Made by a program: the position numbers and the translations under genes
Origin: a virus
Taxonomy: Duplodnaviria > Caudoviricetes
Reading direction: 5' to 3' (one strand)
Virus record (IMG/VR): IMGVR_UViG_3300009095_000052
Coordinates: 1-29,873 of that record
Length of the DNA: 29,873 bases
In this document: in pieces, positions 6,083 through 28,038 of the stretch
Numbering within the stretch: the first letter of the stretch is position 1
How the letters are laid out: every line of letters starts with the position of its first letter
Notes under the pieces: generated by a model
What the model was told of the DNA's origin: nothing
Database searches by the model: none
What the model saw: only the letters and a program-made list of their open reading frames with translations

Positions 6083-6106
6083 ACCCGGCGATATCCGAAC
6101 ACCGGC

Positions 6107-6146
6107 GACACTGCCCCGGCTTCCCTCACTGGGCCGGGGCAGTGTC
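6107..6146 (+). terminator. stem-loop after the hydrolase gene
   Basis: 14-bp perfect stem GACACTGCCCCGGC/GCCGGGGCAGTGTC. Confidence 0.6.
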
Positions 6147-6168: not shown

Positions 6169-6189
6169 TGCAGGGCGATGAGCTACCCT
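6169..6189 (+). promoter_or_regulatory. putative late promoter (TGCAGG-N9-TACCCT), leaderless
   Basis: matches a five-copy motif; ATG 6196 follows 6 nt after the -10-like box. Confidence 0.6.
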
Positions 6190-6195
6190 CGCGTC

Positions 6196-6951
6196 ATGGC
6201 CTCGAAGACCTCTGCCGCCCCGTCCGAGCTGGCGCTGTTCCACCGCAACCCCAAGCGCGGTGACGTGCCCGCCATCGAGCGCAGCCTGCTCGCGCACGAC
6301 CAGTACCGGCCCATCGTCGTCAACAAGGGCACCCACACCGGCCGACCGATGGAAGTGCTGGCGGGCAACCACACGCTCATCGCCATCCGCAACCTCGCCG
6401 AGCGCTATCCCGACGACGCGCGCTGGCACAAGGTCGCGATCCACGTCATCGACGTGGACGACGACCGGGCCACCCGCATCGTGCTCGCCGACAACCGGAC
6501 CGCCGAGCTGGGCGGGATGGACGAAGAGACGCTGGCCGAGCTGCTGACCAACCTGGGCGGAGAGCTGGACGGCACCGGCTACTCCAGCGAAGACCTGGAC
6601 GACCTCATTGCCCTCGGGCAGGAGGGCCTGGAGCACATCGAGTTCGACGCCAAGAAGAAGGGCCAGCGCGAGGACGGCCTGGTCGATGGCGACACCATCG
6701 AGGATCGCCAGGACGTGTACGCCGACCAGGCCACCCGGCTGATCATCCTCAATCTTCCGATCCCCCAGTTCATCTGGGCACAGGGCATCCTCGAACGCTA
6801 CCGCGAGGCCACCGGGGTCGAGTCCAACGCCGAGGCGCTGCTCACCTTCCTGAGCGAGTGGTCGAACGAGACGCCTCCGGCCGCCGACGCCGAGCTGGAG
6901 CCCGTGCCCGGCACCGAGGCCGAGGCGGTCAACCCCTTCGCCCAGGCGTAG
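6196..6951 (+). CDS. ParB-like nuclease domain protein
   Basis: HRNPKRGDV..I..SL...DQYRPIVV...VLAGNHTL...LADNRTAELG, ParB N-terminal signature. Confidence 0.85.
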   Translation: MASKTSAAPSELALFHRNPKRGDVPAIERSLLAHDQYRPIVVNKGTHTGRPMEVLAGNHTLIAIRNLAERYPDDARWHKVAIHVIDVDDDRATRIVLADNRTAELGGMDEETLAELLTNLGGELDGTGYSSEDLDDLIALGQEGLEHIEFDAKKKGQREDGLVDGDTIEDRQDVYADQATRLIILNLPIPQFIWAQGILERYREATGVESNAEALLTFLSEWSNETPPAADAELEPVPGTEAEAVNPFAQA

Positions 6952-6953
6952 CC

Positions 6954-7814
6954 GTGAGCACGCCGCTCGAACGCCTGTACTTGCCCCGAGTGCTGACCCC
7001 GCAGCAGGCCAGCCACCTCGTCGGCGAGATGGTGACCGAGCGCGAGCCCTCTCTGCTCGCGCCCGGCACCGTGGTCCATGATGCCGAGACCGGCGCGCCC
7101 GTGCTGGCGTATCTGCCACTGGACGAGCCAGCCGCCCTGCGCCGCGCGGCGTTGAGCGTGGACTTCGACAAGTCCACCCTCGGCCGCCAGAAGAACTACC
7201 GTTCGCGCTCGCGCACGTTCGGGTTCTCACCACGGCGGCCCGTCGTCCTGCGGGAGGGCTGCACGCTCGCCGCGCTCGCGCACGAGCAGCCCGACGTGGA
7301 GCGCGTGCTGGAGTCCTACGCCGACCGGTTCAGCGCGGCGCTGGAGACCATCGACCCCGACATCGTGTCCAAGGACCAGGCCACCCTCGGTGACGTGCTG
7401 CCGGACTGGCGCATGGGCGAGGCGAAATTGTGGACCTCCGGCGTCGTCAACGACACCGCACAACTTCCGTACCACCGCGACGGCTTCAACTTCGCCACCT
7501 GGTCGGCGATGCCCGTGGTCCGGCGCGGTGTGCGCGGCGGGCACCTGCACCTGCCCGAGTACGACGTGACCGTGCCGTGCATGGACTCCACGGTGACCTA
7601 CTTCCCCGGCTACACCTACGTCCACGGCGTCACGCCGATGACCAAGGCGCGGGCCGACGGCTACCGGATCAGCATCGTCTACTACGCCCTCAAGGGCATG
7701 AAGAACTGCCGCGAGGCGGCAGAGGAAACGCGCTACGCGCGGACCCGGCGAACCGAACGCGAGGCCGACATGGCCCGCCGTCTGGCCGCCGGAGACAAGG
7801 AGATTCCCCGGTGA
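6954..7814 (+). CDS. TET/JBP-family 2-oxoglutarate/Fe(II) dioxygenase
   Basis: HxD (YHRDGFN), distal His (VHGVTP) and 2OG-binding RISIVYY motif. Confidence 0.85.
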   Translation: MSTPLERLYLPRVLTPQQASHLVGEMVTEREPSLLAPGTVVHDAETGAPVLAYLPLDEPAALRRAALSVDFDKSTLGRQKNYRSRSRTFGFSPRRPVVLREGCTLAALAHEQPDVERVLESYADRFSAALETIDPDIVSKDQATLGDVLPDWRMGEAKLWTSGVVNDTAQLPYHRDGFNFATWSAMPVVRRGVRGGHLHLPEYDVTVPCMDSTVTYFPGYTYVHGVTPMTKARADGYRISIVYYALKGMKNCREAAEETRYARTRRTEREADMARRLAAGDKEIPR

Positions 7815-8695
7815 CCCTGCGCCGCGACCGTAGGCAGCGACTCGACCACTACGCCGAGTGGCACCACCTCCAGGTCGCGACTGGGGACATCGACCCGGCC
7901 TACCCCGTGCTGGCTCACATCGCCGGGCAGTTCGGCCGGACCGACGGCGCGTGGCTGGTGCTGCGGCACGTCGCCTACTACCACCTCGGCTCAGCGCTGC
8001 GCTCCTACGCCGAGAGCCAGGGACCGCGCCTGCCGTCGATGCTGTTGCGCCTGCCGACCGGCACCGAGCGCCGGGCGCACCGCGACGTACGCCAGTTCGC
8101 CGCGCACTGGGACGACCTCGTCCGCCAGGTCGCCGAGCACGGCGGCCCGCGCGAGTTCCTGACCCCGACGCAGACCGGGCGCGCCGGATGGGACGAGCTG
8201 ATCGAGCGGCTGTGCGGCGTCCGGGGCAACGGCCGGTGGGCCGCGTACAAGACCGCTGAGCTGGCACAGAAGGTGCTCGGCGTGCCGATCATCGCCTCCG
8301 ACGCCGGGCACGCCTACAGCACCGGCCCGCGCAAGGGCCTGGCCCTGCTCCAGGACATCCCCGGTGACAACTCGCCGGAATCCATCGCGATCCTGGACAA
8401 CATGACCGACCAGCTCGCGCGCTGGCTGCCCGAGCGCGATATCGCGCAGGTGGAGACCAGCCTGTGCGACTTCCACTCGGCGTTCCGGGGTCGGTACTAC
8501 ATCGGCAAGGACATTGACGAACAGCTCCACCACCTGCTGGCCGTCCCGTCGGACTTCACTCCGCTGGCGCTGCGAGCGCGCCAGCTCGCCTTCCCGAATC
8601 AGTACCTCGGCGAGGAGCACGGCTGGACCGAGGTGGACAAGGAGCGCTGCAAGGTCTACCGCGACACCGGCCGCATCATCGTCCGGGAGCGGTGA
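7811..8695 (+). CDS. alpha-glutamyl/putrescinyl-thymine pyrophosphorylase (amino acid:DNA transferase)-like protein
   Basis: GDIDPAY N-terminal motif, HhH-like GNGRWAAYKTAE, STGPRKGL, VETSLCDF and YYIGKDIDE; context between dioxygenase and kinase. Confidence 0.75.
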   Translation: MTLRRDRRQRLDHYAEWHHLQVATGDIDPAYPVLAHIAGQFGRTDGAWLVLRHVAYYHLGSALRSYAESQGPRLPSMLLRLPTGTERRAHRDVRQFAAHWDDLVRQVAEHGGPREFLTPTQTGRAGWDELIERLCGVRGNGRWAAYKTAELAQKVLGVPIIASDAGHAYSTGPRKGLALLQDIPGDNSPESIAILDNMTDQLARWLPERDIAQVETSLCDFHSAFRGRYYIGKDIDEQLHHLLAVPSDFTPLALRARQLAFPNQYLGEEHGWTEVDKERCKVYRDTGRIIVRER

Positions 8696-8790
8696 TGCGT
8701 GCGGCGGTCAGCGACCTGCTCGACCGCGTGATGCTGCGGGCAGCGCAATGGATATGGGACTGGACCCAGAGGAGGACACATGGCCGATGA
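8695..8790 (+). CDS. 31-aa Trp-rich micro-ORF (MRAAVSDLLDRVMLRAAQWIWDWTQRRTHGR)
   Basis: TGATG coupling to the upstream stop; fills the only gap in the operon and overlaps the kinase start; absent from the ORF track. Confidence 0.4.
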   Translation: MRAAVSDLLDRVMLRAAQWIWDWTQRRTHGR

Positions 8791-9316
8791 CCTGATGATC
8801 TACATGATCGGCGAGCCGGGATCGGGCAAGTCCACGCTTATGGCCCGGCTGACCGAACCGTGGTCGCGGCACCCCGCCGACGGCCAGCCCCGGCGCGACC
8901 TGCTGCTCGAAGGCGAGACCGTGCGCGGTGTGGAGCTGGGCAAGCGGCGCGCGGGCGGCTTCTCCGGCACCGACGCGCTCGGCTCGTCGGTGATCACCGT
9001 GGCCGAGCGCTGGCTGTACCAGCACGAAGCCCCCATCGTCCTCGGCGAAGGCGCGCGGCTCGGCAATGCGCGCTTCCTCAAGGCGGGCGTCGACGCCGGA
9101 TATCGCGTGACGCTGGTCCTGCTGGAGCACGGTGACTCAGCCCGCTGGCGCGCCGCGCGCTCCGAAGCACTCGGCCGGACGCAGAACGCTGCATGGGTGA
9201 AGGGCCGTGCCACGGCCAGCCGTCGGCTTGCCGACCACCCGCCCGCTGGCGTCGGCGTCCTGCGCGGGCACCCCGACAACCTCTACCCCATCCTCTCCGA
9301 AAGGCTCGGCGCATGA
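8780..9316 (+). CDS. P-loop nucleotide kinase (5-hydroxymethyluracil DNA kinase-like)
   Basis: Walker A GEPGSGKST; FSGTDALG and GEGARL motifs; GAGGAGG RBS. Confidence 0.8.
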   Translation: MADDLMIYMIGEPGSGKSTLMARLTEPWSRHPADGQPRRDLLLEGETVRGVELGKRRAGGFSGTDALGSSVITVAERWLYQHEAPIVLGEGARLGNARFLKAGVDAGYRVTLVLLEHGDSARWRAARSEALGRTQNAAWVKGRATASRRLADHPPAGVGVLRGHPDNLYPILSERLGA

Positions 9317-9921
9317 GCATTCTCCGCAAGCTGGACTACGACGAGCTGGACCGCTACGCCACGCTCGCCAAGGCCGAAGTCGGCCAGATGAAGGCGGCTG
9401 GCGTGCCCGCCGACCAGCTCAAGCCCGAGCGCGAGGTGCTGTCCGAGTTCAGCCTCGCCAAGCGCTGGTCGCTGGAGGCGTACCTCCTGCGCGAGTCCAC
9501 GGCCATCATCGTCGGCTTCAACAAGCGGGGCACCGACCCGTTCGGCCGGTACGCCAACGTCTACGTCGTCCACACCCGGCTCGCCGAACGCGGCAAGGGG
9601 CAGGCCGTGGAGGCGTACCGCGCGGTGATGATGCTGGCTGCGGTCCGGGGCGTGAAACGTATCGTGACGACAGCGGGCAGCTACGGCGGGTGGCGGACCC
9701 ACCGCGCCCTCGGCTTGCCCGCGTGGGGCCTCAACGACAAGGGCCAGATCATCTCCGACGGACCGGTCCACCCGCAGCTGGATGTGCCCGGCCGTCCACC
9801 ACGCGCCACCCAGGATCAGCCGATGACCCCGTACGAGCAGGTGCAGGTGCTCATCGACCCGAACGGTCCGTACCGGGTCAATCCCGCAGACCTCGAAGGC
9901 GATTGGCGGAAGCTCGCATGA
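9313..9921 (+). CDS. GNAT-family acetyltransferase-like protein
   Basis: acetyl-CoA motif A-like VHTRLAERGKGQAVEAY; ATGA overlap. Confidence 0.65.
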   Translation: MSILRKLDYDELDRYATLAKAEVGQMKAAGVPADQLKPEREVLSEFSLAKRWSLEAYLLRESTAIIVGFNKRGTDPFGRYANVYVVHTRLAERGKGQAVEAYRAVMMLAAVRGVKRIVTTAGSYGGWRTHRALGLPAWGLNDKGQIISDGPVHPQLDVPGRPPRATQDQPMTPYEQVQVLIDPNGPYRVNPADLEGDWRKLA

Positions 9922-10700
9922 ACATCCTCATCGTCGGCGCGGGCATCTGCGGCTCGGCGCTGACCATCGCGGCGGTGCGCGCCGGGCACACGGTCACCCT
10001 CGTCAACGACGATCAGCCGATGGATTCGCTCAGCGCGGCGGCCGTCCTGCGCCGCGCCTGGCACGCCGGGTCCGAGCGCGCGCTGTTCAACCGGACCCTG
10101 GACCTGTACGCCGAGTGGGACATCCAGCTGCTCACCGGAGCCGTGGTCACCAGCTACCGTCGCAGCGAGCCCAAGTACGACCCGGACTGGCGGATGATCG
10201 ACCCGGCCGCGCCGTTGGTCACGGCGTCGGTGTCCGGTCACGCCGTCGGCGTCGGCGAAGGCGTGGTGCGCGTCGGCGAGCAGACCTTCCACCCCGACGC
10301 CACCCTGTGGGCCACTGGCCGTTACGGCGGTGAGGTCACCGGCGTGACCTACGGCGTGACCTGGGTCCACGACAACCCCGACGCCGCGCTGATCGACCCG
10401 GCGCACATGCGCGTGCACCACATCGCCCCGTACAAGTCGGTCATGGCCGGTGAGGTCGGCGGCCGGGCGCGCTTCGGCTCCAGCTCGGCCACCAGCAGTG
10501 ACAAGGCGCGGCAGCAGGCCAAGGACATGTACGCGCTCGGTGTCCGCGAGGGCATCATCCGCGACGACTCCGGTTGGTACGCCGTGTCCGGGCAGCGGGT
10601 CAAGACCGCGCCGAACGCCACCCTCGGCGGGATGCACCGGACCGGCTACGCGCTGGCTCCTGCACTGGCCGAGAGGATCATCGCCCGGATAGGGAGGTGA
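9918..10700 (+). CDS. FAD-dependent oxidoreductase (DAO/glycine oxidase-like)
   Basis: N-terminal ILIVGAGICG dinucleotide-binding motif; C-terminal GGMHRTGYALAPALA. Confidence 0.8.
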   Translation: MNILIVGAGICGSALTIAAVRAGHTVTLVNDDQPMDSLSAAAVLRRAWHAGSERALFNRTLDLYAEWDIQLLTGAVVTSYRRSEPKYDPDWRMIDPAAPLVTASVSGHAVGVGEGVVRVGEQTFHPDATLWATGRYGGEVTGVTYGVTWVHDNPDAALIDPAHMRVHHIAPYKSVMAGEVGGRARFGSSSATSSDKARQQAKDMYALGVREGIIRDDSGWYAVSGQRVKTAPNATLGGMHRTGYALAPALAERIIARIGR

Positions 10701-10702
10701 CC

Positions 10703-12286
10703 ATGATCGTCATGGAGCCGCACCAGCTGCTTAGCAAGACGAGCGGCTGGTCGGATGAACAGCGGCGCGAGTTCCTGGATGACCTGCGCCTCAAGGCCGC
10801 GCGCGTGCGCTACCCGACCCCGGCCGCGATGGCCGCCGACCTGCTGCCCGGCTACAACGTCACCCCGGCCGTCGAGCTGATCAGCGAGGTGGTCAAGGAG
10901 GCTGTGCTCACGCCGAACGGCCGCTACATCGTCACCACCCCGCCGCGCACCGGCAAGTCCGAGCTGGTGTCCGTCATCGGCCCGGTGTGGGCCAACGTGC
11001 ACCGGCCCGGCATCGAGGTTATGCTCGCCAGCTACTCCGACACGCTCGCCACCGAGCACAGCCGCAAGTCACGGCGGCTGATCGTGGAGCACGGCGACAA
11101 GCTCGGCGTCCGACTCAACGCAGAGAAGACGGCCGTCGGCCACTGGACCACCAACCACGGCACCGGCCGGGGCGGGATGCTGGCGGGCGGCATCCTGTCC
11201 GGCATGACCGGCTTCGGTGCCGGGCTGCTGATCGTGGACGACATCTTCAAGAACCACCAGGAGGCGGACAGTGCGACGCTGCGCGCCCGCATCCTCAACG
11301 AGTTCCGCGAGACCCTGATGACGCGCCTCTACCCCGGCGCGTCGGTGATCATCGTCATGACCCGCTGGCACCCCGAAGACCTGGCCGGTGTCCTGCTCAC
11401 CGGCGACGAGTGGACCTACATCAACATCCCTGCGCTGAGCGAGCCCGGCATCCCCGACGCGCTCGGCCGACCGCCTGGGGTGTACCTGGAGAGCGCGCTC
11501 GGCTTCACCCCGGCCGACTTCGCTGCCCGGCGCAAGCAGATCGGCGAGCGGGCCTGGTACGCGCTGTACCAGGGCGCTCCGACGCCGCCCGAGGGCGGAC
11601 TGTTCGCGCGCTCGTGGTTCAACGCGCACCGGCTGGAGGTCCAGCCGGTGCGGACCGTGATGCGGATCGTCGCGGTGGACCCGGCCGAGACCGGTGAGCG
11701 CGACGAGGCCGGTGTCGTGGCCGCCGCGCTGCTGCCCGACGGGACGATGGCCCTCACCCATGACCGGTCCGGCCAGATGACCTCGGACGAGTGGGCGCAC
11801 GCGGCGGTGAAGCTCGCGATGGAGACCGGCGCGAGCGAGATCGCGGTGGAAACCTACACGGCGGGCACGACCTACGTGGCCGTGGTGAAGCGGGCCATCG
11901 CGGCTTACCGTGACGCGCTCCGCAAGGACTACGACGGCAGCGATCCCGAGACCAGCGCGGCCATCCGCCGTACCTACGACCTGACCGTGTACCCGTGGCG
12001 CGGCAAGGGCGACGCCGTGGCGCGCTCGGCGCTGTTCCGCCAGGCCGTTGAGGTCGGCACCTGCCGGGTGGTCGCCGATGAGATGGCCGAGATGGAGAAC
12101 CAGGCGGTGCTCTGGCAGGTCGGACAGCACCAGCCCGACCGCGTGGCCGCCAGCGTGATCGCTCACGACCGGCTGCCGTCGCTGGCCGGGCGCAAGACCA
12201 CCCTCGGCTCGCCGCTCCGCAGTGCAAACCGCCCGGCCGGGGCAAACCCCAGCCGGGCGGCGTGGTTGAGCAGGAAGGTCGGCTAG
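10703..12286 (+). CDS. terL: terminase large subunit
   Basis: Walker A PPRTGKS, Walker B LLIVDD, MTRWHPEDL, LYQG.P, nuclease VAVDPA and PDRV; GGGAGG RBS. Confidence 0.92.
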   Translation: MIVMEPHQLLSKTSGWSDEQRREFLDDLRLKAARVRYPTPAAMAADLLPGYNVTPAVELISEVVKEAVLTPNGRYIVTTPPRTGKSELVSVIGPVWANVHRPGIEVMLASYSDTLATEHSRKSRRLIVEHGDKLGVRLNAEKTAVGHWTTNHGTGRGGMLAGGILSGMTGFGAGLLIVDDIFKNHQEADSATLRARILNEFRETLMTRLYPGASVIIVMTRWHPEDLAGVLLTGDEWTYINIPALSEPGIPDALGRPPGVYLESALGFTPADFAARRKQIGERAWYALYQGAPTPPEGGLFARSWFNAHRLEVQPVRTVMRIVAVDPAETGERDEAGVVAAALLPDGTMALTHDRSGQMTSDEWAHAAVKLAMETGASEIAVETYTAGTTYVAVVKRAIAAYRDALRKDYDGSDPETSAAIRRTYDLTVYPWRGKGDAVARSALFRQAVEVGTCRVVADEMAEMENQAVLWQVGQHQPDRVAASVIAHDRLPSLAGRKTTLGSPLRSANRPAGANPSRAAWLSRKVG

Positions 12287-12483
12287 GGCTCGATGCTGGC
12301 GGCGATGTCGCGCAGGATCGCGGCGTGCACGTCGGCGTCGGTGCCGTTCACCTCGTCGCCGAACTCGCCCAGCATGACGGACTCGCCGTTGGACAGCCGC
12401 TCCAGGATGTCCTTCACCTCGGCCAGGAAGCGGCCTGCGGTCGTGGTGACCGGGGTGACCTTGGCAATGACTTCTGCGGACAT
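12283..12483 (-). CDS. hypothetical protein
   Basis: GAGGAG RBS; convergent with terL. Confidence 0.7.
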   Translation of the reverse strand: MSAEVIAKVTPVTTTAGRFLAEVKDILERLSNGESVMLGEFGDEVNGTDADVHAAILRDIAASIEP

Positions 12484-12494
12484 GGTGTTCTCCT

Positions 12495-12710
12495 CTACTG
12501 CTTCACCACGGCGATGCAGGCCGTGGTGCGGTTCTTGGTGTGGGCGAAGTGGTACATGCCGAACAGCTCGTGGCTGAACTCGTAGCCCAGCTCCTCGGCC
12601 TTCTTCACCAGCTCCCCCGCGCGGGCCGGGTCGGTGACCGTCATCACCGGCTCGTCGTGGGGGAACGGCTGGTCGGCGTAGGGGTGCTCCCAGATGGTCA
12701 GCGCGATCAC
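12495..12710 (-). CDS. hypothetical protein
   Basis: GGGAGG RBS; GTGA overlap with the upstream leftward gene. Confidence 0.65.
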   Translation of the reverse strand: MIALTIWEHPYADQPFPHDEPVMTVTDPARAGELVKKAEELGYEFSHELFGMYHFAHTKNRTTACIAVVKQ

Positions 12711-12880
12711 CGGCCGACCTCCCGCAGCGCGACGGTCTGGAACTGCCGGTAGCTCACCTCGGTGTCGTCGCCGACGCCGATGAAGGTGTGACCGTCGTGG
12801 GTGTCCTCGTAGCGCACCACCCGGCCGTCGGCGAGCACGTCGCCGGGCACCAGGTCGGTTGCCGCCTTGATCTGCCTCAT
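12707..12880 (-). CDS. hypothetical protein (57 aa, MRQIKAATDLVPGD...)
   Basis: C-terminal part of track ORF 12707..13519; ATG at 12880 with GAGAGGA RBS and its own promoter. Confidence 0.7.
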   Translation of the reverse strand: MRQIKAATDLVPGDVLADGRVVRYEDTHDGHTFIGVGDDTEVSYRQFQTVALREVGR

Positions 12881-12925
12881 TAGGGGTCCTCTCCCTCGTG
12901 GCAGGGTTCCTTCCCCACCGTAACT

Positions 12926-12964
12926 AAAATAACCGGTGGACGGGTGTTGTGTCAACACCCGTCC
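12926..12964 (-). promoter_or_regulatory. repeated cassette promoter TTGACA-caacacccg..-TATTTT embedded in a 12-bp inverted repeat
   Basis: -35 at 12950-12955, 18-nt spacer, -10 at 12926-12931; IR GGACGGGTGTTG-tgt-CAACACCCGTCC. Confidence 0.8.
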
Positions 12965-12972
12965 GGTCGGTC

Positions 12973-13479
12973 CTACTTCTTGACCTCGATGTGCAGGTCG
13001 AAGGGCGTCAACCTCGCGCGCTCCGGCAGCGACTCGTCGGCCTGCGCCCGGCCCTCCAGGATGAAGCCGGGGCTGCACGGGCACGAGCAGCCCGCCTTCA
13101 CGCTGAACTTGGCCTTGGTCCCGACGCCGGTCAGGTAGCCCGCGCGGACCGCCTCGTCCAGCAGCTCCATCAGCCGCTTGCCGCCGACCTTGGTGGTCGC
13201 CCGGCTCCACGCCTGCCACATCGCGGCCCGTACGTCGTCCTCGGCGGACCGCTCCGGCCCGGCCAGCGGGATCGAGTGGTAGCCCTCCCCGTAGTTGTTC
13301 GCGAACGGCTCCAGCTTCATCAGCTCCGGGGCCAGCGCGTCCAGCGCGCCGTAGACCCGCGTGGCCTTCGTCCAGTAGCCGCGCTCGTCCCGGCCGCGCC
13401 GGACGGCGGTGATGGTCAGGGTCTCGGTCTCGATGACGAACAGGCGGTGCTCGGGCAGGTCGGCGGTGATGACGTTCAT
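12973..13479 (-). CDS. hypothetical protein with GCSCPCSPG motif
   Basis: AAAGGAG RBS; cassette promoter upstream. Confidence 0.8.
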   Translation of the reverse strand: MNVITADLPEHRLFVIETETLTITAVRRGRDERGYWTKATRVYGALDALAPELMKLEPFANNYGEGYHSIPLAGPERSAEDDVRAAMWQAWSRATTKVGGKRLMELLDEAVRAGYLTGVGTKAKFSVKAGCSCPCSPGFILEGRAQADESLPERARLTPFDLHIEVKK

Positions 13480-13498
13480 GGGGCTCCTTTCCCTGGAG

Positions 13499-13568
13499 GA
13501 GCGGGTCCGTCCCGCTCACTGTAACTACAATAACCGCTCGCCGGGTGTTGTATCAACACCCGGCGAGC
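13499..13568 (-). promoter_or_regulatory. cassette promoter plus 5' leader hairpin
   Basis: TTGATA-N18-TATTGT; 15-bp IR 13536-13568; leader hairpin GAGCGGG-ACGGA-CCCGCTC at 13499-13517. Confidence 0.85.
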
Positions 13569-13574
13569 AGGAGG

Positions 13575-13889
13575 TCAGAAGTTCTTCGCGGGCAACTCGG
13601 GGAGGCCCAGTCGCTTCGCCATCGCGTCCGATTCCTTCACCCGGCGAGCGAAGGCGCGGTCGATCTTGGCGTCCATCCGGGCCATCAGGTCCGCGACCAG
13701 CTCGCCGGTCGTGGCGAAGATCGCCAGGCCCAGGGCCTCGATGTCGTCCATCCACTGGTCGAGCGAGGGGTGGTCGCCGTACCAGCGGATGTCGCAGCTC
13801 AGCTCGATGATCTTCCGCTCGGCGGAGGTGACGGTGCGGACCTGGCCGTGGTCGATGTTCAGCTCGGCGATCAGCTTCGTGGTAGCCAT
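13575..13889 (-). CDS. hypothetical protein (104 aa, MATTKLIAEL...)
   Basis: ATG at 13889 with GGAAGGA RBS after the leader hairpin. Confidence 0.75.
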   Translation of the reverse strand: MATTKLIAELNIDHGQVRTVTSAERKIIELSCDIRWYGDHPSLDQWMDDIEALGLAIFATTGELVADLMARMDAKIDRAFARRVKESDAMAKRLGLPELPAKNF

Positions 13890-13909
13890 CTCAGGGTTCC
13901 TTCCCTCGG

Positions 13910-13967
13910 GAGCGGGTCCGTCCCGCTCACTGTAACTACAATAACCGCTCAACGGGTGTTGTGGCAA
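13910..13967 (-). promoter_or_regulatory. cassette promoter plus 5' leader hairpin
   Basis: TTGCCA-caacacccg..(N18)-TATTGT; hairpin GAGCGGG-ACGGA-CCCGCTC at 13910-13928. Confidence 0.85.
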
Positions 13968-14004
13968 GCCCTCGGCAAGATTAATTTTCACCGTGCCGAA
14001 CGGC

Positions 14005-14034
14005 TTGACACAACACCCGTCGCGCGGGCATTCT
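14005..14034 (+). promoter_or_regulatory. rightward copy of the cassette promoter with no downstream ORF
   Basis: TTGACA-caacacccgtcgcgcggg-CATTCT. Confidence 0.65.
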
Positions 14035-14040
14035 AGGTTA

Positions 14041-14140
14041 CGGTGGGGAAGGCTCTGCGCAGCTCAGAGCCCTTCACCGAGTTGCCACCACACCAATCGG
14101 CCCTGCGCGAGCCCGGCCCGTAGACCGGGCTCGCTGTCAT
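14041..14140 (+). ncRNA. candidate ~100-nt structured small RNA
   Basis: follows the 14005 promoter; hairpin 14041-14079, single-stranded C/A-rich linker, 10-bp hairpin 14107-14134; no RBS-led ORF. Confidence 0.4.
14107..14134. terminator. stem-loop between convergent units
   Basis: GCGAGCCCGG-cccgtaga-CCGGGCTCGC. Confidence 0.55.
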
Positions 14141-14144
14141 CCTC

Positions 14145-14468
14145 TCAGTGCGGGAGCAGATCGTGCTCCTTGCCGTGCTCGTTCAGCCGCTGCCGGAGCG
14201 AGCGGTGCGCGTCCACGAACCAGCCCTGGTGCCGCACGGTGCTGGCCGCCATCTCGCTGTCGAGCAGCGCGAGGACCTGCCGGTACGACAGGTTGTCCAC
14301 GTACTCGCCCCGGCCGTCCTCGAACGGCGAGCTCGCGAAACACGCTGGGCACGAGCACCCGCTGTCGGTCCCGACCCGGTACCGCTTGGTGTCGGGGTTG
14401 TACTCCAGCCGGAACAGGTCGAACCCGTAGCTCTCCCCGCGCAGCTCCAGCTCCCCGATGAACTCCAT
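14145..14468 (-). CDS. hypothetical protein with DSGCSCP motif
   Basis: ATG at 14468 with GAGGAG RBS. Confidence 0.75.
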   Translation of the reverse strand: MEFIGELELRGESYGFDLFRLEYNPDTKRYRVGTDSGCSCPACFASSPFEDGRGEYVDNLSYRQVLALLDSEMAASTVRHQGWFVDAHRSLRQRLNEHGKEHDLLPH

Positions 14469-14478
14469 GATGTTCTCC

Positions 14479-14886
14479 TCAGATGTAGTTGCCGTTGCCG
14501 TCGTGCGTCGACAGGTAGTGGGGAGGGCCGCAGCACTCGCAGCCTTCCTCGGCCACGTCCTGGCCGGTGATGTCCTTGAACTCGGCAGCCGCGACACCCT
14601 GCGAGACGCCGTAGCGCTTCGCGCGGGTCGCCAGCTGTCCCATGTAGCGGTACTTGCCGTCCTCGGCCAGCACGGGCTCCACGAAGCCGCGCCCGACGTG
14701 CTGGGAGACCCACTCCACGACCCAGCCCGCCTCCTCCAGCGCGTACCAGTCGGCGTCGGACAACCAGAACGATCCGCCCGAGTTGTTCTCGCTCAGCTGT
14801 ACGTAGGGGCCTTCGTGGACGGCCACGACCTCGCCGACGATTTCGGCGTCGATGACCTCGGGTGCGAGTTCCAGTTCCTTGCCCAT
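14479..14886 (-). CDS. hypothetical protein with NNSGGSFW and GCECCGPPH motifs
   Basis: ATG at 14886 with AAGGAGG RBS after the leader hairpin. Confidence 0.75.
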   Translation of the reverse strand: MGKELELAPEVIDAEIVGEVVAVHEGPYVQLSENNSGGSFWLSDADWYALEEAGWVVEWVSQHVGRGFVEPVLAEDGKYRYMGQLATRAKRYGVSQGVAAAEFKDITGQDVAEEGCECCGPPHYLSTHDGNGNYI

Positions 14887-14909
14887 CGCGGGCCTCCTTC
14901 CAGAGTTCC

Positions 14910-14976
14910 GAGCGGGTCCGTCCCGCTCACGAGATAGATGCGGGCACCGGCCGGGCCGTGTCACCGGCCGGTGCCC
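14910..14976 (-). promoter_or_regulatory. leader hairpin plus 13-bp inverted repeat carrying a degenerate -35
   Basis: hairpin GAGCGGG-ACGGA-CCCGCTC at 14910-14928; IR 14942-14954/14964-14976 with GTGACA at the loop. Confidence 0.65.
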
Positions 14977-15007
14977 TCCGGGGTCCAGCGCTCACGCTGG
15001 TCCGGTC

Positions 15008-15044
15008 GGCCGATCACGAGAGCCGCGAAGTCTCGTGACCGGCC
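15008..15044 (-). terminator. stem-loop downstream of the DUF932 gene
   Basis: GGCCG-a-TCACGAGA...TCTCGTGA-c-CGGCC. Confidence 0.45.
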
Positions 15045-15060
15045 AGGGGATGGTCTGAGA

Positions 15061-16053
15061 TTAGACGGACAGCAGCTCGAACGCGCGCGACTTGATGTCG
15101 GCGAACGGGCCGCGCAGCGCCTTCTCCGGTGCGACGCCGAGCTGGCCCTCGCCACCGCGCACCGGCCACTTGTGGTCCACGTACTCGGTGACCGAGTTGT
15201 AGACGTTGTAGCGGGTGTCGCCGAGCATCCGGTTGGTGTCGCTGTCCATGCCGACCAGCACGCCGGTGACGTGCTCGATGCGGCTGTCGCGCTGGCGCTG
15301 CGTCTTGGCCTCCTCCACGCCGAAGACCGTGTGCAGCAGGCGCTCGGCCTCATCGCGCTCCACCTCGGCCTCGATCATCCGCTTCACCTGCTCCTCGAAG
15401 GCGTTGACGTACTTCCAGGTCAGCTTGAGCGATTCGCGCGCCTCGGCGACGGCATCGGTCGCGCCGCTGGTGTGGCGGATGCTCCAGCTCGACTTCGCCG
15501 ACGCCAGCGCCGCGCTCTGAGTGTTGGCGCAGACGATGCGGACCGGGGTGACGACCAAGCGGAACGCGCCCCAGCCGTCGTGGCTGTTCAGCGCCGAGAT
15601 GTAGAGGTCGGTCTGGTCGGTGCCGCCCGGCACGTCCAGGACCATCGCCTCGGGCAGCTTCATCGTCACGAAGGTCTCGCGACCGCCGCGCAGCGCTCCG
15701 GCCGTCTCGAAGTGCGCGCCGGACTCGTCCACGAGGACGTTCAGCATCTCGGCCGACTCCTCATTCTGGATGACGTGATAGCCCTTGCCGACCACGCCCA
15801 GCGGTTCGACCGCCTGGCTGATCGGGTTGGTCCGCACGGTGGCGAACTTGCCATCCACCGCGACCATGTTGCCGTCGGCGTCGGCGGTGAAGATCGGCTG
15901 CTTGCGCACGTTCCAGTTCGCCAGGTAGCTCTCGGCCATCACCTCGTCCGCCGTCATCAGGTGGCCGACCTGCTGTCCCAGCTGGTGCCAGGCGTCGGTG
16001 CGGGAGTCGGCGAAGAAGGTGGTGTTGTCGGTGCCGTCGAGGTCGTGTGCCAT
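15061..16053 (-). CDS. DUF932 / TIGR03299 phage-plasmid family protein
   Basis: AWHQLG, LGVVGKGYHVIQNEE, FETAGALRGG, NSHDG, TPVRIVCANT, IRHT and YNSVTEYVDH motifs. Confidence 0.85.
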   Translation of the reverse strand: MAHDLDGTDNTTFFADSRTDAWHQLGQQVGHLMTADEVMAESYLANWNVRKQPIFTADADGNMVAVDGKFATVRTNPISQAVEPLGVVGKGYHVIQNEESAEMLNVLVDESGAHFETAGALRGGRETFVTMKLPEAMVLDVPGGTDQTDLYISALNSHDGWGAFRLVVTPVRIVCANTQSAALASAKSSWSIRHTSGATDAVAEARESLKLTWKYVNAFEEQVKRMIEAEVERDEAERLLHTVFGVEEAKTQRQRDSRIEHVTGVLVGMDSDTNRMLGDTRYNVYNSVTEYVDHKWPVRGGEGQLGVAPEKALRGPFADIKSRAFELLSV

Positions 16054-16073
16054 GAGGGCGTCCTTCCGGTCGG

Positions 16074-16132
16074 TCAGCGGGTCCGTCCCGCCGAACAGCA
16101 GCTACGATACGGCGGCTGTTAATCGAGGGCAA
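16074..16132 (-). promoter_or_regulatory. promoter plus variant leader hairpin
   Basis: TTGCCC-N17-TATCGT; hairpin TCGGCGGG-ACGGA-CCCGCTGA with changed but still paired stem. Confidence 0.7.
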
Positions 16133-16189
16133 GTTTTCAGCGTAACTAATCTGAAAAATGTAAGCCTACCTGCGCGTTCGCCTGATCCC

Positions 16190-16220
16190 TTGACACAACA
16201 CCCGTGAAAGCGGGTATTGT
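16190..16220 (+). promoter_or_regulatory. cassette-type promoter, leaderless, for hicA
   Basis: TTGACA-caacacccgtgaaagcggg-TATTGT, ATG 7 nt downstream. Confidence 0.7.
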
Positions 16221-16227
16221 CTGTGAC

Positions 16228-16440
16228 ATGGCGAAACGAAAGATCGACACCCGCAGGCCCGACATCAAGGCGGCCCTGGAGGCTGGCTGGGTATACGTCG
16301 GCAGGACCAGAGGCTGCCACCTACGGTTCGAGCACCCCGGCACGAAGCAGCCGATGATCCTGTCCTCCACCCCGAGCGACTACCGCGCCGCTCGCAACGC
16401 CGTAGCGTGGATCAGGAGGAACACCCCACCGACACCATGA
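16228..16440 (+). CDS. hicA: HicA-like toxin (dsRBD-fold mRNA interferase)
   Basis: ALEAGWVYVGRTRGCHLRFEHPG...STPSD pattern, 70 aa. Confidence 0.7.
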   Translation: MAKRKIDTRRPDIKAALEAGWVYVGRTRGCHLRFEHPGTKQPMILSSTPSDYRAARNAVAWIRRNTPPTP

Positions 16441-25988: not shown

Positions 25989-26522
25989 TCACTCAAAGGG
26001 AGTGGCAGGGTGCTTGTCGTCGCTGGACTTGAGGCCCGCGTACTGCGCGGCGGCTCGGTCGCGCGCACAGGTCTTGCACTTACGCCCGGCGCGGTTCTCG
26101 TAGCAGTTGTCCGGGGTGAGTTCATGCCCCCGCTTGCAGTGGGTCTTCTGGGAGTTCCAGTGCCCACCGTTACGAACCATGTCCGCCACGTTGTGCGCTT
26201 GCGTTCCCCATTCCAGGTTCTCTACGCAGTTGTTGCTTCGGTCATCGTTCAGATGACGGGCTACCTGCCCTACCGGGCGCGGCCCGACGAAGGTTTCCAG
26301 GACCAGTTGATGAACCTTCCGTCGGCGGCGTGCTCCGGTGCGGAGGCGGACTTCCAGGTATCGGGAATGCGCTGGACCACTCCAGGTTTGAGTGACCGGC
26401 TGCGCCGGTTCTACAAGTCTTCCGTGAGGGTCCAGCAGGTCCGACCTGCGTACTTCTCCACGGTTGGAAATCTCGTATCCGGGGTGTCCGGGTACGGGCT
26501 CCCAGATATCGGTGTCGGTCAT
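25989..26522 (-). CDS. NUMOD4-HNH homing endonuclease
   Basis: WEPVPGHPGYEISNRGEVR (NUMOD4); VHQLVLETFVGPRP..ARHLNDDRSNNCVENLEWGT..N (HNH); KTHCKRGH...CKTC zinc motif; antisense to the late operon. Confidence 0.9.
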   Translation of the reverse strand: MTDTDIWEPVPGHPGYEISNRGEVRRSDLLDPHGRLVEPAQPVTQTWSGPAHSRYLEVRLRTGARRRRKVHQLVLETFVGPRPVGQVARHLNDDRSNNCVENLEWGTQAHNVADMVRNGGHWNSQKTHCKRGHELTPDNCYENRAGRKCKTCARDRAAAQYAGLKSSDDKHPATPFE

Positions 26523-26557: not shown

Positions 26558-27406
26558 ATGGCCGTTTTCCCTGTGGTTAAGGGCACCGTGCTGAGGGCCA
26601 CAAAGGTCAACAACTGTGGTCTGCCGGTCGCCGGACCGGCGAACCGGGTGGTCACCCCCGGCTGGGTGTCGCTGACCATCTCTCCTGAGTTCCAGGAGGC
26701 CGAGGAGCTGGAGCAGCGCAACGCCGAGGGTCGCGTCTGCGTCCAGGACCGCACCCCGCCCGAGCGCAAGTACTACAACCTGGAGCTGACGCTCTGCCAG
26801 GTCAACACCTGCCTCATCTCGCTGTTCAACAGCTGGGTGCAGGAGCTGGACTGGGAGGGCAACGCGGTCGGTTTCCGCGACCAGCGCGAGGTCGAGGCCG
26901 ACTTCGGTGTGGCTCTGGAGCTGTGGGCCGGTGGCCGTGCAGGCACCGACTGCCCGCTGCCCGAGGACGATTCAATCTTCGCCTCGGCGGGCACCGGTCG
27001 TAACTACGGCTACGTGCTCACCTTCGGCACCGAGTTCGTGCTCGGCGACATCGAGATCGCGGCGTCCGTCGCGACCTTCGTGCTCACCGGCATCTCGTTC
27101 CCCGCGCCGCAGTGGGGCCGTGGTCTCTACAACGTCGTGGCAATCGACAGCTCCAACACCCCCGGCCGTCTGCTCACCCCGCTCGGCCAGGACCAGCAGC
27201 TGGTCATCCAGCGGACCCCGGTCCCGCCCCCGGACCCGACCCCTGGCGAGGAGTGCTGCCCGGTGGACATCGCCGGGGTGTTCACCGCGCCGAACTACTA
27301 CTTCGGTGGCCCGGCCGGTGAACCCGCAGCCGATATCGCGCCGGATCAGCCCGCCTGCGAGGGTGAAGGCGAGGGTGAAGGCGAGGGTGAGGGCGAAGGC
27401 GAGTAA
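26558..27406 (+). CDS. major tail (tube) protein with C-terminal E(GE)7 tail
   Basis: AAAGGA RBS; LRATKVNNCG.P, EQRNAEGRVC and WGRG.YNVV motifs of cluster-B-like tail tube proteins. Confidence 0.85.
   Translation: MAVFPVVKGTVLRATKVNNCGLPVAGPANRVVTPGWVSLTISPEFQEAEELEQRNAEGRVCVQDRTPPERKYYNLELTLCQVNTCLISLFNSWVQELDWEGNAVGFRDQREVEADFGVALELWAGGRAGTDCPLPEDDSIFASAGTGRNYGYVLTFGTEFVLGDIEIAASVATFVLTGISFPAPQWGRGLYNVVAIDSSNTPGRLLTPLGQDQQLVIQRTPVPPPDPTPGEECCPVDIAGVFTAPNYYFGGPAGEPAADIAPDQPACEGEGEGEGEGEGEGE
27359..27403 (+). repeat. Glu-(Gly-Glu)7 coding repeat
   Basis: GAG plus 7 x GG(C/T)GA(A/G) directly before TAA. Confidence 0.95.
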
Positions 27407-28038
27407 TGCCGACGTTCCCGACCGGTCCGAACACGCTGCTGTTGCTGTCGGGCGGACTCGATTCCGCCTACTGCCTCTGGAAGCATGTTCGGACCGGTCA
27501 GCCCATCCGCACGCACCATGTCGTTCTCGCCGACCACGAGGGACGACAGGAGGTCGAACGGGTCGCTACACAGCGGGTGCTCGCCTGGGTCCACGCCAAG
27601 GTGCCCGGCTCCCGCGCGCTCATCCAGCACACGGAGAGCCGCGTGAGCTTCGGGGACTTGCGCTGGATTCCGAAGAACTACCACCTGTGGGCGTACTGGA
27701 CAGGCGTCATCATGGCGGCCCCGTCCGGCCGGGCCATCACCGACATCATCCTGCCCCGGCACAGCGACGCTTTCGCTGGCGGTCCCACCGGCCCGTCGGC
27801 GCGGCGCAGCGACACGGCCTACAAGGGCCACGTGAAGCTCATTGCCGGGCGCGAACCGGTGCTCCGGTACCCAATGGCCCATCTCACCAAGGCGCAGGTC
27901 ATCGCCGACATGCCGCAGGGTCTGATCGACGCGAGCTGGTGGTGCCGTACCCCGCGCAACGGGACGCGGTGCCACAAGTGCGCGACCTGCAAGCTGGTCG
28001 ATCCCGCTCTCGCCGCGCGGGCGCGGAAGGTAGGCTGA
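27406..28038 (+). CDS. QueC-like PP-loop ATP pyrophosphatase (adenine nucleotide alpha-hydrolase superfamily)
   Basis: LLLSGGLDS PP-loop; P..HLTKAQV; C-x8-C-x2-C-x2-C zinc site (CRTPRNGTRCHKCATC); TAATG-coupled to the major tail gene. Confidence 0.8.
   Translation: MPTFPTGPNTLLLLSGGLDSAYCLWKHVRTGQPIRTHHVVLADHEGRQEVERVATQRVLAWVHAKVPGSRALIQHTESRVSFGDLRWIPKNYHLWAYWTGVIMAAPSGRAITDIILPRHSDAFAGGPTGPSARRSDTAYKGHVKLIAGREPVLRYPMAHLTKAQVIADMPQGLIDASWWCRTPRNGTRCHKCATCKLVDPALAARARKVG

What the first reader, a model, noticed from the sequence alone, without database searches (positions are those of the whole stretch)
6196..10700. TET/JBP-initiated thymidine hypermodification operon with GNAT and FAD tailoring enzymes
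Seen: contiguous genes for ParB-like, TET/JBP dioxygenase, aGPT-pyrophosphorylase-like transferase, P-loop kinase, GNAT and FAD oxidoreductase; no dUMP hydroxymethylase and no cytosine methyltransferase in the window. Established: in phages such as M6, ViI and PaMx11, 5hmU in DNA is phosphorylated by a kinase and substituted by an amino acid:DNA transferase; PaMx11 then uses a flavin enzyme and an acetyltransferase to give 5-acetylaminomethyl-U. Those phages obtain 5hmU at the nucleotide level. Inference: here 5hmU is made after replication by a JBP-like thymine hydroxylase, making the pathway entirely DNA-level and ending in an acetylated aminomethyl-U or a new base. TET/JBP-kinase-transferase neighbourhoods have been predicted computationally in actinophages, but I do not know of this six-gene version being characterised.
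Basis: partly seen in the sequence, partly recalled or inferred. Interest (0 to 1): 0.82.

Follow-up and report, generated by a model that had tools for sequence, protein, structure and literature searches.

The report
Phage all-DNA-level thymine acetamidomethylation cassette
Six adjacent genes in an uncultured actinobacterial phage likely convert thymine in finished DNA, step by step, into an acetylated aminomethyl-uracil; each kind of step is already published for other phages, so what is new is mainly an untested acetyltransferase family and an end product nobody has measured.

Summary
A cluster-B-like actinophage fragment has six same-strand genes before the terminase: ParB-like, TET/JBP dioxygenase, amino acid:DNA transferase (AADT), P-loop kinase, GNAT and FAD oxidase. 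The AADT keeps PaMx11 gp46's catalytic and glycine-binding residues. The FAD enzyme's best structural match is PaMx11 gp47. The GNAT fold is confirmed, but it is not a gp48 orthologue. Four complete cultured relatives lack a cytosine methylase and a thymidylate-synthase-family gene. Likely route: T, 5hmU, 5-phosphomethyl-U, glycinyl-T, 5-aminomethyl-U, 5-acetylaminomethyl-U.

Lee 2022 predicted TET/JBP-fed thymidine hypermodification. O'Toole 2026 showed ParB-activated phage thymine dioxygenases. Phages Phelemich and Reprobate carry five of the six genes. All six functions recur in 16 of 74 related viral loci, with three different GNAT families. This scan also noted similar five- and six-gene cassettes on other genomes.

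Still open: the window's dioxygenase branch, kinase clade and ~200-aa GNAT family differ from the tested enzymes, and I found no end-to-end chemistry in print. Verdict: new variant of a known kind.

The parts
6106..6145 (+). G+C-rich hairpin of about 16 bp between the upstream alpha/beta-hydrolase (lysin B-like) gene and ParB; no U-tract; possibly a terminator or processing site (inferred)
   Evidence: region folds at -54.5 kcal/mol, z -3.3; not called by the terminator scan
6178..6951 (+). ParB-like protein (N-terminal ParB domain, acidic linker, C-terminal region; start 6178 or 6196); likely activator of the dioxygenase
   Evidence: PHROG 6392 E 1e-82; 44-52% identical to gene 1 of Wooper, Phelemich, Tonitrus and Prince; role by analogy to PMC13229309
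6954..7814 (+). TET/JBP Fe(II)/2OG dioxygenase, actinophage-type branch; likely T to 5hmU on DNA
   Evidence: Tet_JBP E 3e-5, below cut-off; close relative L027 passes the cut-off; H174, D176, H224, R238 and C252 invariant
7811..8695 (+). Amino acid:DNA transferase (aGPT-Pplase2/AADT); likely glycine:DNA transferase
   Evidence: PF18724 E 6.5e-27; 25-28% identical to PaMx11 gp46 and M6 gp51; D28, W143, K147, E215, T216, C219 match gp46 D24, W146, K150, E243, T244, C247
8780..9316 (+). P-loop kinase of family PF18751; likely 5hmU-DNA kinase
   Evidence: PF18751 E 1.4e-52; tested kinases M6 gp54 and PaMx11 gp49 hit PF18748 instead; only the Walker A region aligns to gp49
9313..9921 (+). Divergent ~200-aa GNAT-fold acyltransferase of an unnamed family; likely acetylates the aminomethyl group
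   Evidence: AF2 pLDDT 81.7, Foldseek hits all GNATs; Atlas; 102 representatives at E<=1e-3; no similarity to gp48 beyond the fold
9918..10700 (+). FAD-dependent glycine-oxidase-family enzyme, homologue of PaMx11 gp47/NGTO; likely cleaves glycinyl-T to 5-aminomethyl-U
   Evidence: hhalign 97%, E 3e-11 over 257 columns; top PDB profile hits 8z2o and 8z79; Foldseek ranks 1-3, TM 0.70-0.76
10697..12286 (+). Large terminase, directly coupled to the cassette (context, not part of the chemistry)
   Evidence: Terminase_6N E 2e-9; PHROG 38

Best explanation
The six genes likely form a post-replicative thymidine hypermodification pathway whose predicted end product is 5-acetylaminomethyl-uracil (5-AcNmdU) at a fraction of thymines. 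Predicted steps: (1) the ParB-like protein activates the dioxygenase, which oxidises T to 5hmU in duplex DNA; (2) the kinase makes 5-phosphomethyl-U; (3) the AADT attacks C6 through Cys219, expels phosphate and adds glycine; (4) the FAD oxidase cleaves the glycine N-C-alpha bond, leaving 5-aminomethyl-U and glyoxylate; (5) the GNAT acetylates the free amine. The likely purpose is protection from host nucleases, with modification near the time of packaging. Shown here: gene identities, folds, conserved active-site residues and co-occurrence. Inferred: every activity. Confidence by step: T-based DNA-level pathway about 0.9; glycine to aminomethyl-U about 0.75; acetyl as the final group about 0.55.
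For: AADT catalytic and glycine-binding residues are conserved against gp46 (residue roles from PMC11472151, and PMC8989533). The FAD enzyme's closest solved structure is NGTO. NGTO's P179, Y180, W51 and carboxylate-binding R242 map to P171, Y172, W48 and R227; K48 and K268 map to R45 and R241; P171, Y172, R227 and R241 are invariant in 65 homologues. Complete relatives Wooper, Phelemich, Tonitrus and Prince have no PF00145 (0 of 4) and no PF00303 (0 of 4), while PaMx11 as control has PF00303. Of 74 viral loci with AADT and kinase in view, 71 have a TET/JBP gene, 2 are cut short and 1 (L117) has a thymidylate-synthase-like gene instead. This fits TET and dUMP hydroxymethylase being alternative 5hmU sources. 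In 16 of the 74 the TET carries the motifs seen in the tested clade C1 enzymes, within the same ParB-AADT-FAD-kinase chassis. GNATs occur in 18 of 68 loci with an FAD oxidase and 0 of 6 without; some are gp48-like (L050 E 7e-7, L064 E 7e-12).
Against: No activity or base was measured. The window's dioxygenase lies on a separate branch (100/100 support) from the C1-motif enzymes, at 23-32% identity. Its motifs are absent from all 12 supplementary files of PMC13229309. Many tested clade C1 pairs gave little or no 5hmU. The kinase is in PF18751, not the tested PF18748. The GNAT is unrelated to gp48 at profile level (probability 0.1% and 0.9%). The GNAT-FAD association is not significant once kin are merged: 8 of 30 FAD lineages against 0 of 2 FAD-less lineages. 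L011 has AADT-kinase-GNAT followed by a non-FAD gene, although its upstream DNA is missing. Some pocket residues differ: gp46 Y47, H95, F173 and D175 map to H, A, S and G; gp47 Q182 and Y244 map to S174 and K229. 56% of this phage's genome is unseen. PaMx11's own 5-AcNmdU was reconstituted in vitro, not seen in virion DNA.
Confidence: 0.55

Rival explanations
1. Same pathway up to 5-aminomethyl-U, but the divergent GNAT adds a group other than acetyl (another acyl-CoA or an aminoacyl donor), or the AADT uses another amino acid or amine. The result is an undescribed base.
For: The GNAT belongs to a separate ~200-aa family with its own conserved motifs and a C-terminal extension, unrelated to gp48. 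AADT and FAD pocket residues partly differ. AADTs are known to vary in ligand: glycine, serine, putrescine, diaminopropane.
Against: Glycine-binding D24/W146/K150 and the carboxylate-binding Arg are conserved. gp48-like GNATs fill the same slot in sister loci.
Confidence: 0.22
2. The DNA product stops at 5-aminomethyl-U (or is only partly acetylated), and the GNAT is a passenger acting on a protein, a small molecule or another base.
For: 50 of 68 FAD-bearing loci have no GNAT in view. Phelemich, Wooper and Tonitrus lack PF00583 in their complete genomes. L011 has this GNAT without an adjacent FAD gene.
Against: The window-type GNAT was found inside this cassette in every locus with context (L007, L010, L011, L065; 4 of 4, the window's own record excluded). 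It overlaps both neighbours by 4 bp. Three GNAT families occupy the slot.
Confidence: 0.15
3. The dioxygenase works mainly on 5-methylcytosine supplied by a methylase elsewhere or by the host, or the unseen part of the genome supplies 5hmU at the nucleotide level.
For: The record is 44% complete. Tested T-dioxygenases also oxidise 5mC in vitro. This dioxygenase branch is absent from the tested set I could read.
Against: 0 of 4 complete relatives encode PF00145 or PF00303. No C5 methylase appeared among 101 of 111 neighbour-cluster representatives scanned. The AADT and NGTO partners are uracil-ring enzymes.
Confidence: 0.05
4. The cassette is a packaging accessory or a decayed module with no base chemistry; databases label the kinase 'terminase small subunit'.
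For: Tight coupling to terL; PHROG 800 label.
Against: The same label is given to the proven kinases PaMx11 gp49 and M6 gp54. Active-site residues are intact, and the module is conserved across 32 AADT lineages.
Confidence: 0.03

Closest known systems
Pseudomonas phage PaMx11 gp46-gp49 (AADT/PUGT, NGTO, acetyltransferase, 5-HMUDK) making 5-AcNmdU; Lee 2022 PMC8989533, Wen 2024 PMC11472151
   Same: Same four downstream enzyme classes; AADT and FAD oxidase are true homologues with conserved active sites.
   Different: PaMx11 has a thymidylate-synthase-family gene and a PF18723 protein; the window has ParB plus TET/JBP instead. The kinase is of another Pfam clade. The GNAT is a different family. 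Gene order differs.
ParB-dependent phage T-dioxygenases (5mYOX clade C1, e.g. 5mYOX176/ParB176); O'Toole 2026 PMC13229309
   Same: ParB-like gene beside a TET/JBP enzyme with a C-terminal extension, no C5 methylase, linked to AADT, kinase and terminase.
   Different: The window's enzyme is on a separate branch with different motifs, 23-32% identical to C1-motif relatives. The paper tested only the first step.
Cultured actinophage cassettes: Mycobacterium phages Phelemich and Reprobate; Gordonia phage Wooper and kin; Rhodococcus phage Tonitrus (five-gene system noted in PMC11955845)
   Same: Phelemich has ParB, TET/JBP (63%), AADT (62%), FAD oxidase (47%) and kinase before terL. Wooper and Tonitrus have the same set with a second, DAO-like clade in the FAD slot.
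   Different: None has the GNAT. No base chemistry for them turned up in my paper searches.
TET/JBP-containing contigs 22-25 in Fig. 2 of Lee 2022
   Same: The text proposes that TET_JBP replaces dUMP hydroxymethylase to make 5hmU in situ for adjacent hypermodification genes.
   Different: Prediction only. The figure is not held, so I could not see whether any of those contigs has both FAD and GNAT.

Membership tests
ParB-dependent T-dioxygenase (5mYOX clade C1) | Fe(II)/2OG motifs HxD...H and distal Arg | tested here: met
   H174, D176, H224, R238 invariant in 12 aligned sequences
ParB-dependent T-dioxygenase (5mYOX clade C1) | Adjacent ParB-like gene with N-terminal domain and C-terminal region, no HTH | tested here: met
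   PHROG ParB hits and no HTH hit; alignment; likeness of the C-terminal region to ParB176 judged by eye
ParB-dependent T-dioxygenase (5mYOX clade C1) | C-terminal extension after the last conserved Cys | tested here: met
   C252 followed by 34 residues; feature defined
ParB-dependent T-dioxygenase (5mYOX clade C1) | No neighbouring C5 cytosine methylase | tested here: met
   None among window ORFs scanned; 0 of 4 complete relatives; own genome only 44% seen
ParB-dependent T-dioxygenase (5mYOX clade C1) | Phylogenetic placement inside clade C1 | tested here: inconclusive
   Separate branch from C1-motif enzymes of my loci; the paper's own sequences were not in the tree; its motifs are absent from the paper's supplements
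ParB-dependent T-dioxygenase (5mYOX clade C1) | T to 5hmU activity raised by cognate ParB | not testable with these tools
   Needs expression and LC-MS
Amino acid:DNA transferase (aGPT-Pplase2, PF18724) | Profile match above cut-off; catalytic Glu/Thr/Cys | tested here: met
   95 bits against cut-off 26.2; E215, T216, C219
Glycine:DNA transferase (PUGT, M6 gp51 type) | Glycine-binding D24, W146, K150 | tested here: met
   D28, W143, K147; four DNA-wedge or pocket residues differ, and specificity itself is untested
5-hmdU DNA kinase (PF18748; M6 gp54 type) | Match to the PF18748 profile of tested kinases | tested here: not met
   Window hits PF18751, not PF18748; gp54 hits PF18748 at E 8e-18 and gp49 weakly. 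It likely works like one but is another clade
N-alpha-GlyT oxidase (PaMx11 gp47/NGTO) | Full-length homology, fold, and substrate cage with carboxylate-binding Arg | tested here: met
   W48, P171, Y172, R227 kept; Q182 and Y244 equivalents differ
GNAT superfamily | GNAT fold and acyl-CoA-binding RxxGxG-type loop | tested here: met
   R93-G94-K95-G96 conserved; the motif's meaning is recalled
PaMx11 gp48-type 5-NmdU acetyltransferase | Sequence orthology to gp48 | tested here: not met
   hhalign probability 0.1% and 0.9%

The most novel reading that the evidence does not exclude
The unnamed ~200-aa GNAT family is a new class of DNA-acting acyltransferase that adds a non-acetyl acyl or aminoacyl group to 5-aminomethyl-uracil. 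This would give an undescribed DNA base through a five-step route run wholly on finished DNA, started by a so far untested second branch of ParB-activated thymine dioxygenases.
Probability: 0.2. Interest if true: 0.7.

Novelty: new variant of a known kind. Interest (0 to 1): 0.36.

Why it matters
If the best reading holds, six small genes would install 5-AcNmdU on ordinary DNA with no change to the nucleotide pool. That would join two separately published half-pathways and give a portable way to put an amine handle on thymine. It also makes a cheap prediction for cultured phages: Reprobate and Phelemich, which lack the GNAT, should carry 5-aminomethyl-U. The wider survey shows a modular chassis with interchangeable 5hmU sources, two FAD-oxidase clades and three GNAT families. 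A specialist would find this useful and testable rather than surprising.

Tried and rejected
GNAT annotation by Pfam, PHROGs and NCBIfam gave nothing for the window protein. No cultured phage has a tblastn match to it or to its L065 relative. Attempts to fetch genomic context for the wider GNAT family failed: the 37-sequence alignment was too divergent to search, a distant subset found nothing in viral or genome contigs, and a close subset found only L007. The neighbourhoods of most of the 102 relatives are therefore unknown. A Mom-like reading of the GNAT was considered: no Mom-type PHROG appeared among 37 members, only weak generic acetyltransferase hits, so it is neither supported nor excluded. 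The database labels 'queuine tRNA-ribosyltransferase' for the dioxygenase and 'terminase small subunit' for the kinase were rejected as mis-annotations. A single-sequence scan for FAD relatives found none; the alignment scan found 54 loci. The Wooper gp5 family matched the NGTO-like profile only weakly (25%) and no PDB sequence; its DAO-like assignment rests on the Atlas feature search and a Rossmann motif. No sigma-70-type promoter was found. Iyer et al. 2013 is not held and the supplement of Burke 2021 could not be read, so whether TET67, TET79 or clade D are of the window's branch is open. No complex prediction or read mapping was run.
Full report
Setting. The window is a whole virus record of 29,873 bases, estimated 44% complete, with G+C about 0.68-0.70. 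Portal, capsid, major tail and terminase genes, and DNA similarity of 66-70% over parts of the region to Gordonia phages such as Wooper and to cluster-B-type mycobacteriophages (the cluster label is recalled), make it an actinophage of that lineage. In those phages the ParB gene is gene 1 and the cassette runs into the terminase.

Observation. Six + strand ORFs lie between 6178/6196 and 10700. Junctions are a 2-bp gap, a 4-bp overlap, an 84-bp gap, and two more 4-bp overlaps, followed by terL; GC3 is 0.87-0.93. ParB-like, AADT (PF18724) and kinase (PF18751) calls are strong. The dioxygenase scores below Pfam's Tet_JBP cut-off, but a 47%-identical relative passes it and the HxD/H/R residues are intact. 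The order AADT-kinase-GNAT-FAD recurs in L007 and L010, which are near-identical to each other.

AADT and FAD oxidase. Against PaMx11 gp46, 17 of 22 residues checked are identical in the alignment. They include catalytic E243/T244/C247, glycine-binding D24/W146/K150 and the phosphate-pocket E92, Y51, K261, D262, E265. Y47, H95, F173, D175 differ, as does L142; H256 maps to R and the count should be read as 16 identical if that position is included as a change, so the safe statement is that six positions differ (Y47, H95, L142, F173, D175, H256) and sixteen match. The FAD family profile aligns with gp47 over 257 columns. Its two best PDB sequence hits are the gp47 structures, and the AlphaFold model (pLDDT 95.5) ranks gp47 first to third in Foldseek. 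The wedge Tyr, the flanking Trp and the carboxylate-binding Arg described in PMC11472151 are kept; Q182 and Y244 are not.

GNAT. The 202-aa protein has no library hit and no match in 50,697 phage records. Its model (pLDDT 81.7) matches only GNATs among the listed hits, and the Atlas agrees. A profile search found 102 representatives; of 13 scanned, 8 hit PF00583 at E<=0.01 and 2 passed the cut-off. It is not related to gp48 beyond the fold.

Source of 5hmU. Four complete cultured relatives have neither PF00145 nor PF00303; PaMx11 has PF00303. I then took the best 80 of 114 viral loci encoding an AADT relative; 74 had AADT and kinase in view, and the other 6 were dropped as truncated. Of the 74, 55 carry the window's type of dioxygenase, 16 a second type, 2 are cut short, and 1 has a thymidylate-synthase-like gene instead. 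The second type shows the motifs of the clade C1 enzymes tested in PMC13229309 (by eye). The two types split with full support and share 23-32% identity (the tree warns of long branches at L118). Their exchange within one chassis argues for one function. It also means the window's branch is outside the tested set that I could read. The kinase is likewise of a different Pfam clade from tested 5-HMUDKs.

How common is the six-gene form? All six functions are in view in 16 of 74 loci: 7 with the window-type dioxygenase and a short GNAT (members of which match gp48), 8 with the C1-type dioxygenase and a 162-aa GNAT, and 1 (L065) with the window-type GNAT and a second, DAO-like oxidase clade. GNATs occur in 18 of 68 oxidase-bearing loci and 0 of 6 without. 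After merging AADTs at 70% identity this is 8 of 30 against 0 of 2 lineages, which is not significant. L011 has the window-type GNAT with no FAD gene beside it, but its upstream DNA is missing. Labels came from my own profiles and single-sequence searches; 101 of 111 unlabelled neighbour clusters scanned against Pfam gave no further GNAT and no C5 methylase.

Mechanism. By analogy with PMC13229309, PMC8989533 and PMC11472151: T to 5hmU (dioxygenase with ParB), to 5-phosphomethyl-U (kinase), to glycinyl-T (AADT), to 5-aminomethyl-U (FAD oxidase), to 5-AcNmdU (GNAT). Only a share of thymines would be changed; tested pairs reached at most about 35% in E. coli and many far less. Nuclease protection is the usual role (function here inferred). 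All activities in this phage are inferred.

Literature seen. PMC13229309: parts 1-5 of 7 of the text, Dataset S2 part 1 of 2, Dataset S11 parts 1-3 of 4, and term searches of all 12 supplements. PMC8989533: passages and sections 15, 17, 20; supplement search empty; Fig. 2 not visible. PMC11472151: parts 3-4 of 7 and section 22. PMC11955845: part 1 of 2. PMC8256090 and PMC13458397: passages. Iyer 2013: not held, recalled only. Seven searches returned no paper that measures a base from a TET/JBP-AADT cassette or treats this six-gene form; subscription journals are largely missing from the library, and listings were judged by title and abstract start.

Verdict. The concept is predicted (2022), its first step is shown (2026), five of six genes sit in cultured phages, and six-function sets are common. 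What remains is a new variant: an untested dioxygenase branch, kinase clade and GNAT family, and an unmeasured end product. Interest 0.36.

Noticed in passing
window 27406-28038 (+): QueC-like gene (Pfam above cut-off on the N-terminal motif; PHROG 1550 E 7e-42) directly after the major tail gene, with no other 7-deazaguanine genes seen in the fragment.
   Followed up: no
L001:3054-3926, L003:3761-4642, L065, L110-L114, L117, L123, L124: The 'hypothetical' fifth gene of the Wooper and Tonitrus cassettes belongs to a family that looks like a DAO/glycine-oxidase flavoprotein (Atlas 0.97-0.98 for the L113 member); probably a second glycinyl-T oxidase clade.
   Followed up: partly
L014, L016, L018, L045, L063, L070, L099: Variant cassettes insert a ~290-aa gene with no Pfam hit (amidoligase-like by eye) and an LMW-phosphatase-like gene (PF01451) between AADT and FAD; L045 adds a methyltransferase. 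These suggest other end products.
   Followed up: partly
L117:4101-8373: The same AADT-oxidase-kinase chassis with a thymidylate-synthase-like fusion gene and no TET/JBP in view.
   Followed up: partly
L096, L098, L101, L105, L109, L116; L004: Cassettes with AADT and kinase but no oxidase or GNAT, predicted to stop at the amino-acid adduct. Prince gp3, annotated 'DNA glycosylase', is a divergent AADT.
   Followed up: no
window 6106-6145: Strong hairpin without U-tract at the position where cultured relatives' genome records begin.
   Followed up: no
L120:354-1145; L111:3454-3864: DpdA and a weak PTPS-like gene close to thymidine cassettes: possible double modification of T and G.
   Followed up: no
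window 12283-16370 (-): About 4 kb of leftward genes, including DUF932 at 15061-16053, between terminase and portal where relatives have RuvC; an HNH gene at 25989-26522 (-) precedes the major tail gene.
   Followed up: no
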